Positions 4,125-9,996 are shown, counted from the stretch's first letter. The stretch is 22,143 bases of DNA from a virus (IMGVR_UViG_2703718843_000010), one strand, 5' to 3'. Notes: generated from the letters alone by a model not told the origin. Made by a program: numbers and translations.

Positions 4125-4444
4125 TGGCAAAAATCTATATCGCTGGCCCGATGAGCGGTTTGCCTGGATTCAATCGGCAGGCTTTTAACCGTGCAGCCGG
4201 GCACGTAGTGCGACGCGGAAACGTTGCCCTTAATCCGGCGATTTTGCCGGATGGATTAGAGCAGGCGGAATACATGGATATTTGCTTCGCCATGTTGCGT
4301 TGTGCTGACGGGATCTTCTTGCTGGATGGCTGGCAGCAGTCTGCCGGAGCTAAGGCAGAGCACGCGCTTGCTGAAAAGCTGGGTTTAGAAATTCAGTACC
4401 AAGTAATCGATCGGTGTAGCCGAAAGGCGGAGGGGCAGCAGTGA
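4124..4444 (+). CDS. DUF4406-like protein (nucleoside 2-deoxyribosyltransferase-like fold)
   Basis: 106 aa beginning MAKIYIAGPMSG...NPAILP, the hallmark N-terminus of the DUF4406 family. ATG overlaps the dam stop (TAATG). Confidence 0.75.
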   Translation: MAKIYIAGPMSGLPGFNRQAFNRAAGHVVRRGNVALNPAILPDGLEQAEYMDICFAMLRCADGIFLLDGWQQSAGAKAEHALAEKLGLEIQYQVIDRCSRKAEGQQ

Positions 4445-5355
4445 CCGCCTACTACAACGAAATCGACCCCTTCGCCGCGCAATACCTGCGCAACCTCATT
4501 GATGCCGGGCTTATCGCTTCCGGTGTTGTCGATACTCGTTCCGTTGAGGATGTAACCCCAAATGACCTTAAAGGATTCTCACAAGTCCACCTGTTTGCAG
4601 GTTTTGGAGGCTGGCCCCGTGCTTTGCGCGTCGCAGGATGGCCGGACGACCGCCCAGTATGGACAGCAAGTTGCCCATGCCAACCTTTCAGCCAGGCAGG
4701 CGAAGGAAAACAATTTGATGATGAGCGGCACCTATGGCCCGCCGTTCATTGGCTTGCAGGCCAGCAACGCCCTGTCGTTATATTTGGCGAACAGTCTTCA
4801 AGCAAAGATGCAGAAGTCTGGATCGACCTTGTACAAACTGACATGGAAAGTTTGGGCTATGCCTTCGGGGCGTCGGCGTTTCCGTCTGCGGGCGTCGGTG
4901 CGCCGCACATCCGGGAGCGTACTTACTGGCTGGCCGACTCCAACCGCGAGCAATACGAAGAACGCTTATCAGGATGCCGAGAAGGTGATCGCCAGGAAGC
5001 TGGCTGGTCGGCAGTCGAACTTACAGGGCTTTGCTTGTCTTGCGGGTTGGCCCACCCCTGCGGCGAGGGATGGAAAGGGCGGGTATCAGGGAGGAAGGAT
5101 GCGGCACGGGAAGCTGTCAACGGATACGCTGGATGTGACAGCGCAGATAGCAGGCCCGGCCCGGTTAACGGATTCTGGGGATCTGCTGACTGGCTCCTTT
5201 GCAGAGATGGAAAGTGGAGGCCAGTTAAACCCGGCCTTAAGCCTCTGGTTGATGGGGTTCCCTCCAGAGTGGGAAAACTACGCGCCAGCGGAAACGCCGT
5301 AAATATCTATGCAGCCGCAACTTTCTTAAAAGCCTACATGGAGATCGCGCAATGA
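4441..5355 (+). CDS. DNA cytosine-5 methyltransferase (phage-type); a second long overlapping frame is described in findings
   Basis: GTG start overlapping the upstream stop (GTGA). Motif I FAGFGG, motif IV PCQPFSQAG, GEQ-type motif VI region, motif VIII GAPHIRERTYWLA, motif X GNAVN...FLKAY. Stop overlaps the gene A ATG. Confidence 0.8.
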   Translation: MTAYYNEIDPFAAQYLRNLIDAGLIASGVVDTRSVEDVTPNDLKGFSQVHLFAGFGGWPRALRVAGWPDDRPVWTASCPCQPFSQAGEGKQFDDERHLWPAVHWLAGQQRPVVIFGEQSSSKDAEVWIDLVQTDMESLGYAFGASAFPSAGVGAPHIRERTYWLADSNREQYEERLSGCREGDRQEAGWSAVELTGLCLSCGLAHPCGEGWKGRVSGRKDAAREAVNGYAGCDSADSRPGPVNGFWGSADWLLCRDGKWRPVKPGLKPLVDGVPSRVGKLRASGNAVNIYAAATFLKAYMEIAQ

Positions 5356-7757
5356 CCACGGCAACCCGTGGCCGTCGCGCCCCTTCTCCACCTCCACCGT
5401 ATCCGGGTAGCACTGACAATGCTATCCCTTACGCTTATGGCGGGAACAAACCATACCAGCCTATTGGCGTTGATGTAGCGCCGGGGCTGGATGGTTTCGA
5501 CTATCTCACGCCGGACGGCACGCGTAAGCATATTGCGTTCAGTGAACTGGTAGCGGAAGACGAAAAGCCGGAGCGCAGCAAGCTGCTGCGTCGCCGCCTG
5601 GCTTCTCTTCCGCAGTATATCCGCCGCCACTTTGCCGCGAAGCTGGATGCACTGGACGCGAAAGACCGCAAAGCGGCAGATCACTGGCTGGTTAATACAT
5701 TTGAGCGCCACGTATTAACGCGTATTGATAGCGTGAACAGTGTTTACCAGCCTGACACTGTGATGCCCGGCATTCTGCTGCCAATCCGCGATCAGCTTTT
5801 CCGTATGCTCTGGGCAGGGAAGAAAGAGTTAAAAAGACTGGCTTATACGCTTGCCGATATCTTTACGAGCGAGTTTATACGCGAGTCCGATCACCAGTTG
5901 GCACGCACCGGAGATCCTGAGTTCGCGGCGCTTTCTGGCTATGGCCGTATTGCGTCGCTGGCGGTGCATCTGAAAACGCCGATCCCTGGCTGGACGGCGT
6001 ATTGCAATGAAGAACTGGAAGCGGAGGACGCGTTACGCGCGGTTCTTCGCCTTGAGTCACCGCAGTGGTGGTTAAACCGCCTGCGCCGTATCCATGCCCG
6101 GTGGCGTGAGCATTTGATGATCGCAGCGGGATACGTCCAGAAAAAATCTTCCCCATACAGTAGCGCCCCGTGCCTTACGGAGTGGTTGGCCCAGAAAAAG
6201 GCTAACCGTGAATACCTTAAGGCTATGGAACTGGAAGACCAGGACACGGGCGAACGCATTTCACTGATCGATAAAGTCGCCGGTAGTGTTGCCAATCCGG
6301 CCAACCGTCGCCGCGAACTCATGACGAGAATGCGCGGATTTGAAGATCTGGCGAAGCTGGAAGGGCTGGCCGGTGACTTCTACACGCTAACAGCACCTTC
6401 CCGTTACCACTCCATGCAGCATAACGGGCGCCGCAATAATAAATACTGTGGCGCGTCGCCGCGCGAGACGCAGCAATATCTTTGCAAAGTCTGGGCGAGA
6501 ACCCGCGCAGCGTGGAAGAGAAAAGGGATCCGCGTCTTTGGTTTCCGCGTGGTCGAACCGCACCACGATGCAACGCCACACTGGCATTTACTTCTTTTTA
6601 TGCGCCCGGAATGCGTCGAGCAGGCGCGCGAAATCTTCCGTAAATATGCCCTGAAAGAAGACGGCAACGAACCGGGAGCGCAGGAAAACCGCTTTCAGGT
6701 TGTGCCGATCGACGATGCCCACGGCAGCGCAACCGGCTACATAGCGAAATACATTTCGAAGAATATCGACGGCTTCGCGCTGGATGGTGAGAAGGACGAC
6801 GAAACCGGGGAAGACCTGAAAGAAATGTCACTCCGCGTTAGCGCGTGGGCATCGCGCTGGGCTATTCGTCAGTTTCAGCAGATCGGCGGTGCGCCGGTCA
6901 CGGTATATCGCGAACTTCGCCGCCTGGGCGATCGCGAACTGGTGTTACACCCTGAACTGGAAACCGCCCGGCAGGCCGCTAACGGTGGCGAATGGGATAA
7001 CTACGTATTAGCCCAGGGTGGACCGTTGGTTGAGCGCGATAAGCTGCGCATCCGTCTGAATTATGAAACCACTGAAAACGGCAACGCCTACGGCGATAAC
7101 GTCCAGCGAATCACTGGTATTTACTGCCCGATTACGGGCAATGACTCTTTGATCTTCACCCGCACCACTCAATACAAAATCGTGCCGAAGCGCCAGAGCG
7201 CTGACGGTGTGGCCGTTGACGTTGGTTTTTCAGGCGGCAACGCCGCCCCTCGGAGTTCTGTCAATAACTGTACGCGGGATCCCGCGGCAGGTGCTGACGG
7301 TGTAGAACATGCCGCCAGCGAAGCTACAGGGCAGTCAGAAATGACTGAGCCAGCTGAGGGCGTGACGGTGAATTTTGATGCGCTTTCACGGCAGGAAAAG
7401 CGAGAATTGGCGCAGCGGCTCAGTGCCGATGTGCGAAGTAAGCGTAAAAAACGGCCACCGGATAGGGAAGACAGGGCCGGGCTGTCCGTGAAAGAGCAGC
7501 AGATCAGTGAACTGCTGGCGCTGCGTGGGATTGATGCCAGCGCCGGAATGGTCAGATCGATGATGGCCGGTGCGTCAGTGGCGTGCGGCGATCTTGTTAT
7601 GACCGTGCAGGACGGGCGGCTGGTGTCGCGCAATCGCGCCGCGTCGGGGATAGGTAAATTAGCAACTGAAAAAATGGCAGTTAAGAAAAAATCTGATGAA
7701 CTTCTCAATCGCTGGAAAGTGGCTGTAAAAATTAACAGGGGTAAGTTGACAAATTGA
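5352..7757 (+). CDS. A: Replication initiation protein A (rolling-circle HUH endonuclease), P2 gpA-like
   Basis: 801 aa with HUH-type motif EPHHDATPHWHLLLF and active-site tyrosine motif GYIAKYISKNIDG; collinear with remembered P2 A. Confidence 0.95.
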   Translation: MTTATRGRRAPSPPPPYPGSTDNAIPYAYGGNKPYQPIGVDVAPGLDGFDYLTPDGTRKHIAFSELVAEDEKPERSKLLRRRLASLPQYIRRHFAAKLDALDAKDRKAADHWLVNTFERHVLTRIDSVNSVYQPDTVMPGILLPIRDQLFRMLWAGKKELKRLAYTLADIFTSEFIRESDHQLARTGDPEFAALSGYGRIASLAVHLKTPIPGWTAYCNEELEAEDALRAVLRLESPQWWLNRLRRIHARWREHLMIAAGYVQKKSSPYSSAPCLTEWLAQKKANREYLKAMELEDQDTGERISLIDKVAGSVANPANRRRELMTRMRGFEDLAKLEGLAGDFYTLTAPSRYHSMQHNGRRNNKYCGASPRETQQYLCKVWARTRAAWKRKGIRVFGFRVVEPHHDATPHWHLLLFMRPECVEQAREIFRKYALKEDGNEPGAQENRFQVVPIDDAHGSATGYIAKYISKNIDGFALDGEKDDETGEDLKEMSLRVSAWASRWAIRQFQQIGGAPVTVYRELRRLGDRELVLHPELETARQAANGGEWDNYVLAQGGPLVERDKLRIRLNYETTENGNAYGDNVQRITGIYCPITGNDSLIFTRTTQYKIVPKRQSADGVAVDVGFSGGNAAPRSSVNNCTRDPAAGADGVEHAASEATGQSEMTEPAEGVTVNFDALSRQEKRELAQRLSADVRSKRKKRPPDREDRAGLSVKEQQISELLALRGIDASAGMVRSMMAGASVACGDLVMTVQDGRLVSRNRAASGIGKLATEKMAVKKKSDELLNRWKVAVKINRGKLTN
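7233..7287. other. Candidate replication origin (nick-site region) inside gene A
   Basis: Hairpin GGCGG-CAACG-CCGCC, then CCTCGGAGTTCTGTCAATAACTG, then perfect palindrome CGCGGGATCCCGCG. Encodes the AAPRSSVNNC linker that I remember as the ori-containing part of P2 A. Confidence 0.35.
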
Positions 7758-7774
7758 AAAATCTGCACCATCAT
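7746..7774 (+). promoter_or_regulatory. Candidate promoter for the cargo cassette (TTGACA, 17-nt spacer, CATCAT)
   Basis: Perfect -35 hexamer at 7746-7751 and a weak -10 at 7769-7774; a second TTGACA...TGCAC module follows 34 bp downstream. Confidence 0.3.
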
Positions 7775-7820
7775 TCTGGTTGACAAAGTTTGATATTTGC
7801 ACTCATGGAGATTTGGATTG

Positions 7821-8414
7821 ATGTCTAAGCAGCCTTTACCTTGGGACTTTCACCCACAATTAACTGAAGAGCGTTTAACAATTATTGCTAAAGAATTGTT
7901 AAGGGTCTTAAATGACACATATGCTCAACTTTCGACCACCTTGGATAACAACTATACACGTTCTACTTGTACTTTTGGTCGTCAATGGCAGTTACTTATT
8001 GATTTATGTTTGAGTGGACAGTACGACTGGCTTCATCTCACCAACGCTGGTTTAGACATCACTTTTACGATCGATACAATTCCTGTTCGTTTCTTCACTG
8101 ATGATCCGGCCAATCCTAAAAAGGATGGTTTTTATCGTCGAAATCCTGCTGATCAGCTTTTTGCTCCTGAGGTGGACATTCCCGTTTTACATCGCTTTGT
8201 TGTTGAGAAACCCGAATTTGAGGGTGAAGGCGCTAAAGTTCATTTCATTGGTTATAACGCTTTGGACGAAGAAGTATCTAAGTGGACGTACAACGATGAA
8301 CCAACAACAGCATTGTTGCACTCTACGGATGATACACCGCCAGAGTCTGTTAGAATTGAACTTGATGACATTCGCCCTTCTCGTCCCGAAAAGGAAGAAA
8401 AAGAGAGCGATTGA
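7821..8414 (+). CDS. Hypothetical protein (197 aa), first gene of the hotspot cassette; candidate effector or toxin
   Basis: ATG at 7821 with GGAG upstream. No motif I recognise; acidic, low-complexity C-terminal tail (PSRPEKEEKESD). AT-richer than the flanking phage genes. Confidence 0.6.
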   Translation: MSKQPLPWDFHPQLTEERLTIIAKELLRVLNDTYAQLSTTLDNNYTRSTCTFGRQWQLLIDLCLSGQYDWLHLTNAGLDITFTIDTIPVRFFTDDPANPKKDGFYRRNPADQLFAPEVDIPVLHRFVVEKPEFEGEGAKVHFIGYNALDEEVSKWTYNDEPTTALLHSTDDTPPESVRIELDDIRPSRPEKEEKESD

Positions 8415-8437
8415 GATTAATGAGTAGAAGGTGAAAA

Positions 8438-9550
8438 GTGTTTAACGGTTCTAATTTAAGATTGGCTCGTCTGTATCACGAGCTATCACTGGAGCAAGTA
8501 GCTGAGCGGGTCGATAAGACCCGCCAGTATATTCAGCGGCTGGAATCCGGCACGGCTGTTCCAACACCCGAGCTTGCGAATAAATTAGCTGCCGTCTTGC
8601 TGGTGATGCCTCATTTTTTTGAAGAGCAATGGCAGTCTCCTGTAAATGAAGAGATCGTTCACTTCCGCAAGCGTAGTTCTACGAGAGTCGCCACAAAAAT
8701 GGCGACTCTCGCCAAAGCTGAGCTGTATCGACGACTTATTGAAATTTTTGAAGAGTATCTGGAGTTACCGCAAGTAAGATTTCCTGAACTGAAGGTGGAT
8801 ACTCAAGAGGATATCGAAAAAGCAGCGGAGAAGTGCCGGACTGATTGGGGGCTAGGTTTTGGGCCGATCGATAACATGACTCGTCTTGCTGAAAAGCTGG
8901 GAGCGTTTGTCACTTCTTTTGATTCTGTTTCTGACGATGTTGATGCTCTTTCTGTTCCTTTGAGCCGCCCATTTATCGTAAGGAATACAGCTAAAAAGTC
9001 ACCCTGCCGTCAGCGGTTTGATATCGCTCACGAGGTTGCACATTTAATTTTACATGAGGGTGTCTCTACTGGAGACAGGGCTACTGAGTCGCAGGCTAAC
9101 CGCTTCGCGTCTGCATTGCTTTTGCCAAGAACAGCTATGGCGAAATATTTTCCACGTCCGATTGGTGGTCGAATCGACTGGCAAGGTCTTAGCCAGTTTA
9201 AATTAACGTGGAAAGTGAGTAAGGCCGCGATCATTTATAGAGCACATCAACTTGGGCTTTTAACTGACGCTCAATACAAAACCGCCTTTTTTGGTCTCAA
9301 GCGAAAGGGGGAGGCTATTGATGAGAAAGAAGATTATTTGATCCCTTGTGAGAAGCCAGAACTATTCAGTAAAGCAATGAAATGCCTGTTAAATGATTTG
9401 TCCGTGGATATTGAAACATTAGCCCAGCGTTTGAGCATAACCCCTACGATGCTCGCAGAACTTGCTAATGATGACACTTTGGTTTCTGCGTCATGTGTGA
9501 ACTCTGAGAATGTAATTTCAATGTTTGCGTATCGGATGAAAACTGCTTAA
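8438..9550 (+). CDS. XRE-family HTH fused to ImmA/IrrE-type (M78, COG2856) zinc metallopeptidase, with an extra C-terminal region
   Basis: GTG start with AAGGTG at 5-nt spacing. N-terminal HTH LRLARLYHELSLEQVAERVDKTRQYIQRLESG; HExxH motif HEVAH encoded at 9029-9043 within the ImmA-like core; about 150 further residues after the core. Confidence 0.85.
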   Translation: MFNGSNLRLARLYHELSLEQVAERVDKTRQYIQRLESGTAVPTPELANKLAAVLLVMPHFFEEQWQSPVNEEIVHFRKRSSTRVATKMATLAKAELYRRLIEIFEEYLELPQVRFPELKVDTQEDIEKAAEKCRTDWGLGFGPIDNMTRLAEKLGAFVTSFDSVSDDVDALSVPLSRPFIVRNTAKKSPCRQRFDIAHEVAHLILHEGVSTGDRATESQANRFASALLLPRTAMAKYFPRPIGGRIDWQGLSQFKLTWKVSKAAIIYRAHQLGLLTDAQYKTAFFGLKRKGEAIDEKEDYLIPCEKPELFSKAMKCLLNDLSVDIETLAQRLSITPTMLAELANDDTLVSASCVNSENVISMFAYRMKTA

Positions 9551-9564
9551 AAATCGCTGTGATG

Positions 9565-9593
9565 AAAAATCCCGCTTCGGCGGGATTTTTTTT
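9565..9593. terminator. Rho-independent terminator, potentially bidirectional
   Basis: Stem AATCCCGC / GCGGGATT with TTCG loop followed by eight T; a five-A run precedes the stem. Confidence 0.8.
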
Positions 9594-9996
9594 AGAAGAT
9601 GTCTGCACAATAGTGCACAAATTTGCACAATTTTTTTGATGCTGTTTATGCCCTTTCCGCCCTGTGGCGGCGCGGTCTGCCCCCGGATCGGCAAGTGCAC
9701 AAAAAACGAAGCAAATGTCGCGCGCAGGTGACGGGGGAACAGCCCACGCGACAGGGGTCAGGGAGGGGGTGCCATTAAATGCCATTCTTCGGCCTTTTCC
9801 GCCTTCTTAGCGCGCTTTCTCGCTTCTGGATATGTGCGGGGTCGATTGCAGTTTGCACCTGCCAGAATGGTGCTCATTCGCTCTGAGTGAGGGGGGTAAA
9901 TGCTGCGCTGAGTGGTGTTCAGGTGGTGGCCGGTCATGCGGGGATTGAAAATTACTGAAGGAGAGCCGCCGCAGGATGTGCGGCGGGTGGGTCGGG
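9594..9996. other. cos / packaging region (inferred from synteny; exact cohesive-end position not determined)
   Basis: About 400-bp non-coding interval between the cargo terminator and the 3' end of portal gene Q, where P2 has cos. Contains G-rich tracts and the TGCACAA repeats. Confidence 0.4.
9604..9630. repeat. Three TGCACAA direct repeats at exact 10-bp spacing (9604, 9614, 9624); fourth copy at 9696-9702
   Basis: Read directly from the sequence. Confidence 0.8.

What the first reader, a model, noticed from the sequence alone, without database searches (positions are those of the whole stretch)
7821..8414. 197-aa orphan protein with acidic C-terminal tail: candidate effector of the cassette
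I find no catalytic or binding motif in this protein. It is the promoter-proximal gene, AT-rich, and ends in a Glu/Lys/Asp-rich tail (PSRPEKEEKESD). By position upstream of the protease-type regulator it would be the toxin or effector if the pair is a toxin-antitoxin or abortive-infection module. Alternatively it could be a divergent P2 Tin analogue, which I cannot judge from memory.
Basis: inference. Interest (0 to 1): 0.6.

Follow-up and report, generated by a model that had tools for sequence, protein, structure and literature searches.

The report
RosmerTA toxin gene in P2-like prophage
The 197-residue protein is not an orphan: it is the toxin half (RmrT) of an already catalogued two-gene RosmerTA toxin-antitoxin / anti-phage module that a P2-like prophage carries in its usual defence-gene slot, and only the way this toxin poisons the cell is still unknown (a conserved loop motif hints at the DNA-replication sliding clamp).

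Summary
The ORF is real: ATG 7821 to TGA 8414, 197 aa, 41.5% GC against 56% in the flanking genes. It is not an orphan. The identical protein is on 589 public contigs, and a profile search finds 436 clusters (at 50% identity) of ~200-aa relatives in Gamma- and Betaproteobacteria. PADLOC matches it full-length to RmrT (E 7.5e-92) and the downstream HTH + M78 peptidase gene to RmrA (E 2.8e-204), so the pair is RosmerTA. In 65 of 70 related loci an RmrA homologue follows the toxin gene directly, preceded by two conserved operator-like repeats. A 56%-identical E. coli relative is, by accession, the prophage toxin that makes clpP essential in strain E101. The P2 Tin alternative is rejected: there is no homology, only the same hotspot between gene A and the portal gene. 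A confident AlphaFold model (pLDDT 91.9) matches no solved or viral fold, and there is no Pfam or NCBIfam hit. Distant family members carry textbook beta-clamp-binding motifs (QLSLF, QLDLF, QLSLPL) in one loop, where the window protein reads DQLF. With the published DnaN-targeting Rosmer toxin RipA, this suggests but does not prove a replication-clamp target. Verdict: a known system; low interest.

The parts
7745..7768 (+). Operator-like repeat 1 (GTTGACAAA-N10-CTGCAC). It overlaps a sigma-70-type promoter: -35 TTGACA at 7746-7751, a 17-nt spacer, and -10 CATCAT at 7769-7774.
   Evidence: The direct repeat was found and the promoter match. The element TTGAC[AG]A-N9-13-[AT]TGCA recurs just upstream of rmrT in nearly all related loci, including ones whose proteins are only 31-36% identical. 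Binding by the RmrA HTH domain is inferred, not shown.
7779..7802 (+). Operator-like repeat 2 (GTTGACAAA-N10-TTGCAC), 34 nt after repeat 1. It lies downstream of the predicted transcription start and has no good -10 of its own.
   Evidence: The two copies are 33-34 nt apart in most loci.
7821..8414 (+). rmrT: the 197-aa toxin of the RosmerTA module (the finding itself).
   Evidence: PADLOC RmrT PDLC03929, E 7.5e-92, residues 1-197. phrog_5786. Homologues. dN/dS 0.034. AlphaFold model with pLDDT 91.9.
7956..7958 (+). Codon for Thr46, inside the conserved D42-N-N-Y-T46-R47 patch at the start of helix 2. It corresponds to the T46S suppressor site of the E. coli E101 toxin.
   Evidence: Alignment. 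The Rousset 2021 preprint was read.
8145..8168 (+). Loop residues 109-116 (ADQLFAPE). Distant family members carry beta-clamp-binding-type motifs (QLSLF, QLDLF, QLSLPL and similar) at this position. L113 and F114 are the conserved core.
   Evidence: The loop lies between strands 3 and 4 of the model and has lower pLDDT (82-87). Its function is inferred.
8376..8411 (+). Variable mixed-charge C-terminal tail (PSRPEKEEKESD).
   Evidence: Its sequence is not conserved among homologues. The last block of the model has pLDDT 74.
8438..9550 (+). rmrA: the 370-aa antitoxin/regulator, starting at GTG. It has an XRE-type HTH (residues 4-56) and an M78 ImmA/IrrE Zn-peptidase domain (residues 151-269), with HEVAH at residues 198-202 (nt 9029-9043).
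   Evidence: Pfam HTH_3 4.2e-12 and Peptidase_M78 2.9e-18. PADLOC RmrA PDLC03943 2.8e-204. 75% identical to WP_000481765.1, the E101 antitoxin. HEVAH position.
9564..9593 (+). Intrinsic terminator closing the two-gene unit: a 12-bp stem AAAAAUCCCGCU/GGCGGGAUUUUU followed by a U-run.
   Evidence: dG -18.3 kcal/mol, z -3.45, and 0 of 200 shuffles fold as well.

Best explanation
The ORF encodes RmrT, the toxin of a RosmerTA toxin-antitoxin / anti-phage module. A P2-like prophage carries the module as low-GC cargo in the variable slot between replication gene A and the cos/portal end, where P2 itself has tin and old.

Shown here:
- The two genes form one unit: promoter with two operator-like repeats, rmrT, a 23-nt gap, rmrA, then a terminator.
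- The unit is conserved as a pair across Gamma- and Betaproteobacteria.
- It moves between unrelated mobile contexts: the P2-like hotspot and the lambdoid nin region.

Inferred from experiments on homologues: RmrT is toxic when it is not controlled. RmrA, an XRE HTH fused to an M78 Zn-peptidase, neutralises it and probably represses the operon through the two operators. ClpXP/ClpP is also needed to keep the toxin harmless. Loss of that control during infection would then arrest or kill the cell, which is abortive infection or exclusion of competing phages.

Most speculative step (about 0.3): the toxin is not an enzyme. Instead it is an acidic protein-binding poison that docks into the hydrophobic cleft of the DnaN sliding clamp through the conserved loop at residues 109-116 and blocks replication, as published for the Rosmer toxin RipA and for SocB.
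For: - Family assignment. PADLOC RmrT 7.5e-92 and RmrA 2.8e-204, both full-length. All 101 sampled relatives hit the same RmrT model.
- Pairing. In 65 of 70 loci from one-genome-per-species contigs, an RmrA homologue starts about 10-140 nt downstream on the same strand. The exceptions are cut by contig ends or degraded.
- Regulation. The operator pair is conserved even where the proteins are about 31-36% identical. A promoter and a terminator bound the unit.
- Cargo status. GC is 0.415/0.456 against 0.56 in the flanks. Gene A is 37% identical to P2 gpA. P2 has tin/old at the same position. A P2 hotspot next to cos is published (PMC9122126). A relative sits in lambdoid prophages.
- Toxin role. 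E. coli 99-3165 carries antitoxin WP_000481765.1, the exact accession of E101_02644, next to toxin WP_001179382.1; the E101 toxin is WP_001179380.1. The window proteins are 75% and 56% identical to that pair. In E101 the module makes clpP essential, and T46S in the toxin suppresses this; T46 is conserved here. The authors report the E101 pair as 33%/42% identical to Vmi480/Vmi470. Vmi480 (198 aa) is lethal alone and is neutralised by the HTH + Zn-peptidase Vmi470. Deletion of rmrA could not be obtained for the verified RosmerTA.
- Clamp idea. QL[SD]LF occurs in 4 members against 0.1 in shuffles, QLxLx[LF] in 19 against 1.2, and the relaxed motif in 56 of 187 against 4.9. About 35 of the relaxed matches lie in the same loop. 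L113 and F114 are conserved across the family. The protein is acidic and soluble with no TM segment. RipA, a Rosmer toxin, binds DnaN, and its antitoxin needs ClpX (PMC12795458).
Against: - No experiment exists on this exact protein.
- Anti-phage activity has been shown only for RosmerTA systems with other toxin families. The verified E. coli OLC-716 RmrT is not detectably homologous (hhalign probability 0.5% and 1.7%).
- The identity of E101_02645 with this family rests on an exact antitoxin accession plus an adjacent toxin accession, not on the toxin sequence itself.
- Vmi480 membership is taken from the authors' reported 33% identity. I did not see its sequence.
- For the clamp idea, the window protein and its enterobacterial relatives have only D-x-L-F, with no Q at the canonical distance.
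- The relaxed motif also matches inside helix 2 (QLLIDL), so it is prone to false positives.
- Family members are related, so motif counts are not independent events.
- RipA's sequence could not be obtained, so neither homology nor a shared motif could be checked.
Confidence: 0.85

Rival explanations
1. The pair is a plain addiction or stabilisation module of the prophage, or a selfish toxin-antitoxin pair, with no role in defence against other phages.
For: For this toxin family only toxin-antitoxin behaviour has been shown: clpP essentiality in E101, and Vmi480/Vmi470 on a mobilisable genomic island. No phage assay exists for it. In three Pectobacteriaceae the rmrA genes of RosmerTA systems are essential.
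Against: It sits in the slot where P2-like phages keep anti-phage cargo, and in lambdoid prophage accessory regions beside hokD. Two RosmerTA systems with other toxins do defend. Defence and addiction do not exclude each other.
Confidence: 0.25
2. RmrT is a divergent PD-(D/E)XK (restriction-endonuclease-fold) nuclease that degrades DNA.
Confidence: 0.08
3. RmrT depolarises the membrane, like the RmrT(D5) toxin of Gordonia phage Kita.
For: One published RosmerTA toxin forms pores and depolarises cells.
Against: There is no hydrophobic segment: the maximum 19-residue Kyte-Doolittle mean is 0.8 and GRAVY is -0.63. The confident model is a globular alpha+beta domain. RosmerTA toxins are known to belong to unrelated families.
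Confidence: 0.04
4. It is a divergent analogue of P2 Tin, which blocks T-even phages by poisoning their ssDNA-binding protein gp32 (this description of Tin is from my own knowledge).
For: It occupies the same position in the prophage as tin, between gene A and the cos/portal end.
Against: There is no sequence relationship: profile against Tin gives probability 0.13%, and BLASTP gives E 2.1. Size differs (197 against 253 aa), orientation is opposite, and this gene has an obligate RmrA partner that Tin lacks.
Confidence: 0.02
5. The roles are reversed or purely regulatory. Either the M78 protease is the effector, or the pair is an ImmR/ImmA-like switch for the prophage, and the 197-aa protein is a sensor or accessory.
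For: M78 + HTH proteins act as regulatory switches in ICEBs1 (ImmA/ImmR). RmrA also resembles the CBASS regulators CapP and CapH (E 2e-18 and 3.2e-6).
Against: Genetics on homologues points to the small protein as the lethal part: the suppressor maps in the toxin, Vmi480 is lethal alone while Vmi470 is harmless, and deletions of rmrA or vmi470 are not obtainable. The cassette travels between unrelated phages and non-phage islands, so it is not part of one phage's lysis-lysogeny circuit.
Confidence: 0.05

Closest known systems
RosmerTA (RmrT/RmrA), Millman et al. 2022 (bioRxiv 10.1101/2022.05.11.491447)
   Same: It is a two-gene operon with a toxin of unknown function followed by an HTH + Zn-peptidase (M78) antitoxin. 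Both window proteins match PADLOC's RosmerTA models full-length.
   Different: The experimentally verified system (E. coli OLC-716) has a 239-aa RmrT with no significant similarity to this one. Defence by this toxin subtype is untested.
E. coli E101 prophage module E101_02645/E101_02644 (Rousset et al. 2021, bioRxiv 10.1101/2020.05.25.114553)
   Same: It belongs to the same toxin family and the same antitoxin family: 56% and 75% identity to the pair that carries the E101 antitoxin accession. The toxin is also 197 aa, and T46 is conserved.
   Different: The E101-type module sits in lambdoid prophages beside hokD, not in a P2-like hotspot. Dependence on clpP has not been tested for the window variant.
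Vmi480/Vmi470 of Vibrio mimicus MGIVmi1 (Luo et al. 2015, PMC4671572)
   Same: A 198-aa toxin comes first, then a 362-aa HTH + Zn-peptidase antitoxin. The toxin is lethal alone and is neutralised in cis. The authors report it as 33%/42% identical to the E101 pair.
   Different: It sits on a mobilisable genomic island, not a prophage. I could not retrieve its sequence to confirm membership directly.
RipA/RipB (Spr1630/Spr1629) of Streptococcus pneumoniae (Maziero et al. 2025, PMC12795458)
   Same: It is a Rosmer-type pair in which the antitoxin's action depends on ClpX, paralleling the clpP essentiality in E101. RmrA hits the NCBIfam spr1629-family model at E 5.1e-49. RipA targets the DnaN cleft, and this family carries clamp-binding-like motifs.
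   Different: RmrA scores 167 bits against a cut-off of 335, so it is a homologue and not an equivalog. No homology between RipA and this toxin was found or could be tested. The host is Gram-positive and the locus is chromosomal.
SocAB of Caulobacter crescentus (type VI toxin-antitoxin; as cited in PMC12795458 and from my own knowledge)
   Same: The logic of control is the same: a clamp-binding toxin is kept harmless by ClpXP-dependent removal, which makes the protease essential.
   Different: SocA is a small proteolytic adaptor, not an HTH-metallopeptidase. There is no sequence relation.
P2 tin/old cargo and the P2 defence hotspot (Rousset et al. 2022, PMC9122126)
   Same: It occupies the same slot next to cos, between gene A and the portal gene, and is low-GC accessory cargo.
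   Different: The proteins are unrelated. The cassette is on the same strand as gene A, whereas tin and old are on the opposite strand.

Membership tests
RosmerTA | An antitoxin gene encoding an N-terminal XRE-type HTH fused to an M78 (ImmA/IrrE) Zn-peptidase with an HExxH motif | tested here: met
   HTH_3 4.2e-12 and Peptidase_M78 2.9e-18. RmrA PDLC03943 2.8e-204 over residues 1-369. HEVAH at residues 198-202.
RosmerTA | An adjacent, co-oriented toxin gene that matches an RmrT family model | tested here: met
   RmrT PDLC03929 7.5e-92 over residues 1-197. The gap to rmrA is 23 nt. The pairing holds in 65 of 70 loci.
RosmerTA | The toxin is lethal or growth-arresting and is neutralised by RmrA | not testable with these tools
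   Supported only through homologues: E101, Vmi480/470, and unobtainable rmrA deletions.
RosmerTA | It protects against phage infection | not testable with these tools
   Shown only for systems with other RmrT families. Here it is inferred from the hotspot location.
P2 Tin | Sequence homology to Tin (AAD03308) | tested here: not met
   hhalign probability 0.13%. BLASTP E 2.1.
P2 Tin | Location in the accessory slot between gene A and cos | tested here: met
PD-(D/E)XK nucleases | A conserved acidic D ... (D/E)xK catalytic set on the central sheet, plus a clear fold match | tested here: not met
Beta-clamp-binding proteins (clamp-binding motif QL[SD]LF or QLxLxL) | A consensus clamp-binding peptide in an exposed, flexible segment | tested here: inconclusive
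   Distant members have QLSLF, QLDLF, QLTLF or QLSLPL in the loop between strands 3 and 4. The window protein has only ADQLFAPE, with LF conserved but Q misplaced. Loop pLDDT is 82-87. Binding is untested.
ClpXP-controlled (type VI-like) toxin-antitoxin modules | The toxin is held in check only when ClpX/ClpP is present | not testable with these tools
   Shown for the E101 relative and for RipAB. Not known for this variant.
Membrane-depolarising RmrT (phage Kita D5 type) | A predicted transmembrane or membrane-anchoring segment | tested here: not met
   Maximum 19-residue hydropathy 0.8 and GRAVY -0.63. The model is globular.

The most novel reading that the evidence does not exclude
This RmrT family (PADLOC PDLC03929 type, including the E. 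coli E101 toxin and probably Vmi480) is a replication poison. It plugs the hydrophobic cleft of the DnaN sliding clamp with a conserved loop motif: QLxLF or QLxLxL in Pseudomonas, Vibrio and betaproteobacterial members, reduced to DxLF in Enterobacterales. RmrA together with ClpXP removes it.

A second RmrT family, the one experimentally verified by Millman et al., is not detectably related in sequence. It also keeps a QLxLDL/NLDLF motif in a loop. Clamp targeting could therefore be a common theme of Rosmer toxins rather than a peculiarity of pneumococcal RipA. I found no report of such a motif in the searchable literature.
Probability: 0.3. Interest if true: 0.6.

Novelty: already known. Interest (0 to 1): 0.3.

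Why it matters
As an annotation it only replaces 'hypothetical protein' with 'RosmerTA toxin RmrT' and marks the gene A-to-portal slot of this prophage as a defence or toxin-antitoxin cargo site. That is useful but not new.

The open part is the mechanism. This toxin family has a confident predicted fold with no known relative and no assigned activity. If the loop motif really is a clamp-binding peptide, three observations would be linked: clpP essentiality in E. coli E101, DnaN targeting by pneumococcal RipA, and the SocAB paradigm. It would also give a testable explanation of how a widespread prophage-borne module stops replication-dependent phages.

Tried and rejected
- Sequence libraries. 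Pfam and NCBIfam gave nothing for the toxin. Pfam on 101 relatives gave only two chance hits. A profile search of all PDB sequences at E<=10 gave nothing. Rfam found no RNA family in the window.
- Phage records. A DNA search found nothing similar. A protein search found one weak hit at 26.5% identity in a Salmonella contig.
- Tin homology was rejected.
- Homology to the verified 239-aa RmrT was not significant with a single sequence (probability 0.5%) or profile against profile (E 0.029, probability 1.7%). The order of motifs along the two families does look parallel.
- The search for related loci with the wide alignment failed for lack of a conserved stretch, so I used the narrower alignment.
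- RipA (Spr1630). I tried to obtain it or to detect it as a family member. A profile search with names returned only Proteobacteria plus one Microbacterium-labelled fragment, and the RipA paper gives no sequence or motif.
- I looked for the phage spectrum of the verified RosmerTA in the preprint supplements and did not find it.
- Vmi480 was not identified among the named cluster members.

Full report
**1. The observation**

The window is a P2-like prophage. A replication endonuclease gene lies at 5352-7757 on the + strand and is 37% identical to P2 gpA. Portal and terminase genes follow on the - strand from 9997. Between them is a low-GC island: 0.42-0.47 against about 0.56 in the flanks, with rmrT at 0.415, rmrA at 0.456 and gene A at 0.562.

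The ORF of the finding runs from ATG 7821 to the stop at 8412-8414 and encodes 197 aa, with GGAG 10 nt upstream. NCBI's PGAP annotation pipeline calls the same start in a 99.9%-identical E. coli locus. The N-terminus M-x5-PW is conserved in 34 homologues. Compared with an 80%-identical locus, dN/dS is 0.034, so it is a real, constrained gene. The described tail, PSRPEKEEKESD, is there.

The word 'orphan' does not hold.
- The identical protein occurs on 589 contigs in Escherichia, Enterobacter, Salmonella, Citrobacter, Klebsiella and Serratia.
- There are 76 clusters of relatives at 90% identity.
- A profile search of 1.84 billion representatives finds 436 clusters with E<=1e-3, almost all single-domain proteins of about 200 aa.

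**2. What it is**

PADLOC's models match the protein end to end as RmrT (PDLC03929, E 7.5e-92) and the next gene as RmrA (PDLC03943, E 2.8e-204). These are the two components of RosmerTA. Millman et al. describe RosmerTA as a Zn-peptidase antitoxin with a toxin of unknown function, and they could not obtain an rmrA deletion.

RmrA has an XRE-type HTH (residues 4-56) and an M78 ImmA/IrrE peptidase domain (residues 151-269), with HEVAH at 198-202. All 101 sampled distant relatives of the toxin hit the same RmrT model and no Pfam family.

I fetched seventy loci from one-genome-per-species contigs, covering Enterobacterales, Xanthomonadales, Burkholderiales, Nitrosomonadales and Methylomonas. In 65 of them an RmrA homologue begins about 10-140 nt downstream on the same strand. 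The other five are cut by contig ends or are degraded copies.

The unit has its own control region. Two 24-nt direct repeats, GTTGACAAA-N10-(C/T)TGCAC, lie at 7745-7768 and 7779-7802. The first overlaps a TTGACA-17-CATCAT promoter. The element TTGAC[AG]A-N9-13-[AT]TGCA recurs directly upstream of rmrT, usually twice and 33-34 nt apart. This holds even in loci whose proteins are only 31-36% identical, and the element is almost absent elsewhere in those loci. Each element is an imperfect inverted repeat (TGaCAAA ... TTTGCA), as expected for a dimeric HTH operator. Binding by RmrA is an inference. A strong terminator closes the unit at 9564-9593.

**3. Link to experiments**

A 56%-identical E. 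coli relative (P0058, on 597 contigs) sits with a 373-aa RmrA in lambdoid prophages, between the replication genes and the Q antiterminator gene and next to hokD.

In E. coli 99-3165 the antitoxin of this variant is WP_000481765.1 and the toxin is WP_001179382.1. In strain 504239 they are WP_000481764.1 and WP_001179381.1. Rousset et al. report that in E. coli E101 the prophage proteins E101_02645 (WP_001179380.1, 'no predicted domain') and E101_02644 (WP_000481765.1) form a toxin-antitoxin module. That module makes clpP essential, can be transferred to K-12, and is suppressed by T46S in the toxin.

The antitoxin accession is an exact match and the toxin accession is adjacent. The E101 module therefore belongs to this family. 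That last step is an inference, because I did not see the E101 toxin sequence itself.

The window proteins are 75% (RmrA) and 56% (RmrT) identical to that pair. T46 lies in the conserved patch D42-N-N-Y-T-R.

The same authors give 33%/42% identity between the E101 pair and Vmi480/Vmi470 of Vibrio mimicus. Vmi480 is a 198-aa toxin that is lethal alone, and Vmi470 is a 362-aa HTH + Zn-peptidase antidote.

The Tin alternative fails as homology. It survives only as a positional analogy, since P2 has orf91, tin and old between gene A and cos, and that slot is a published defence hotspot.

**4. What the toxin might do**

With the 101-sequence alignment, AlphaFold gives a confident model (pLDDT 91.9, pTM 0.79). 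Its elements are:
- two long helices (residues 16-36 and 44-65);
- a six-stranded sheet;
- a long loop (residues 93-122);
- an extended C-terminal segment.

Conservation across the family is mainly structural (P7, L19, W70, P99, G144, W155), plus D42, R54, R90 and R125. No D...(D/E)xK set is conserved. The protein is acidic (pI 4.6), hydrophilic and has no TM segment. On this evidence I reject the nuclease and membrane-toxin readings.

One feature stands out. In the loop between strands 3 and 4, most distant members carry peptides that read like bacterial beta-clamp-binding motifs:
- QLSLF in Pseudomonas (P0183);
- QLTLF in Vibrio (P0167);
- QLDLF, QLSLPL, QLNLAF and QLSLAF in others.

The counts against shuffled sequences are as follows.

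| Motif | Members matching (of 187) | Mean in shuffles |
|---|---|---|
| QL[SD]LF | 4 | 0.1 |
| QLxLx[LF] | 19 | 1.2 |
| Relaxed form | 56 | 4.9 |

About 35 of the relaxed matches fall at residues 100-125. These counts are not independent events, because the sequences are related. The relaxed pattern also hits helix 2.

In the window protein and its enterobacterial relatives only D-x-L-F remains (ADQLFAPE). L113 and F114 are the family-wide core.

The Rosmer toxin RipA of S. pneumoniae was recently shown to act on DnaN through its hydrophobic pocket, and its antitoxin RipB depends on ClpX. This parallels clpP essentiality in E101 and the ClpXP-controlled, clamp-binding SocB. I therefore propose, at about 0.3, that this toxin is a clamp-binding replication poison kept in check by RmrA plus ClpXP. 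I could not obtain RipA's sequence, so neither homology nor a shared motif could be checked.

**5. A second family**

The verified RmrT of E. coli OLC-716 (239 aa) is not significantly similar. Even so, its family conserves QLxLDL/NLDLF in a loop and ends in PQFTPDIDLDIL, which resembles PPESVRIELDDI here. This is suggestive of a common design, but it is not evidence of homology.

**6. Verdict**

This is an already catalogued system in a known kind of place. The finding is correct in its main inference and wrong on 'orphan' and on Tin. The remaining unknown is the toxin's biochemical mechanism. The module is rare in E. coli complete genomes: the window variant is in 5 of 5426 and the E101 variant in 23 of 5426.

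Noticed in passing
window 9604-9633 (and 9696-9707): Just after the cassette terminator, TGCACAA occurs three times at a 10-nt period (TGCACAATAG TGCACAAATT TGCACAATTT), and GTGCACAAAAAA occurs again about 70 nt further on. The core TGCAC(A) is also the right half of the operator-like repeats upstream of rmrT. These could be extra RmrA sites or part of the phage cos/packaging region.
   Followed up: no
window 7745-7802; loci L002-L045, about 20-100 nt upstream of the toxin gene: A pair of TTGAC[AG]A-N9-13-[AT]TGCA elements, 33-34 nt apart, is conserved upstream of rmrT from Enterobacterales to Burkholderiales, although the proteins have diverged to about 31-36% identity. This is probably a promoter plus two HTH operators.
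   Followed up: yes
window 8145-8168 (residues 109-116); alignment A2: The loop carries textbook beta-clamp-binding motifs (QLSLF, QLDLF, QLSLPL) in distant family members and a reduced DQLF in the window protein.
   Followed up: partly
alignment A3 (relatives of the verified E. coli OLC-716 RmrT): This RmrT family shows no significant sequence similarity to the window's, yet it also conserves a QLxLDL / NLDLF loop motif and a C-terminal P-x-F-T-P-D-I-D-L-D-I-L stretch that resembles PPESVRIELDDI of the window protein. The order of motifs along the two families looks parallel (hhalign E 0.029, probability 1.7%).
   Followed up: partly
L004-L007 6001-7726; L078; L080: A 56%/75%-identical version of the same module sits in lambdoid prophages between the replication genes and the Q antiterminator gene, right after a hokD type I toxin gene. 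The cassette therefore moves between unrelated phage families.
   Followed up: yes
L025, L003, L008, L016 compared with window 7821-9550: Toxin and antitoxin do not diverge in step. L003 is 90% (T) and 87% (A) identical; L025 is 63% (T) and 89% (A); L008 is 71% (T) and 86% (A). This suggests either recombination between the two genes or faster toxin evolution.
   Followed up: partly
L003 2660-3939: In another E. coli P2-like prophage the same slot holds ParM and a plasmid-partition protein gene just before the RosmerTA pair. That is unusual cargo for an integrated P2-like phage.
   Followed up: no
window 4441-5355: The ORF just upstream of gene A, overlapping its start, carries FAGFGGW and SCPCQPFS. 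From my own knowledge these look like motifs I and IV of DNA cytosine-5 methyltransferases. The closely related E. coli XYEH3783 prophage instead has a disrupted adenine methylase gene here.
   Followed up: no
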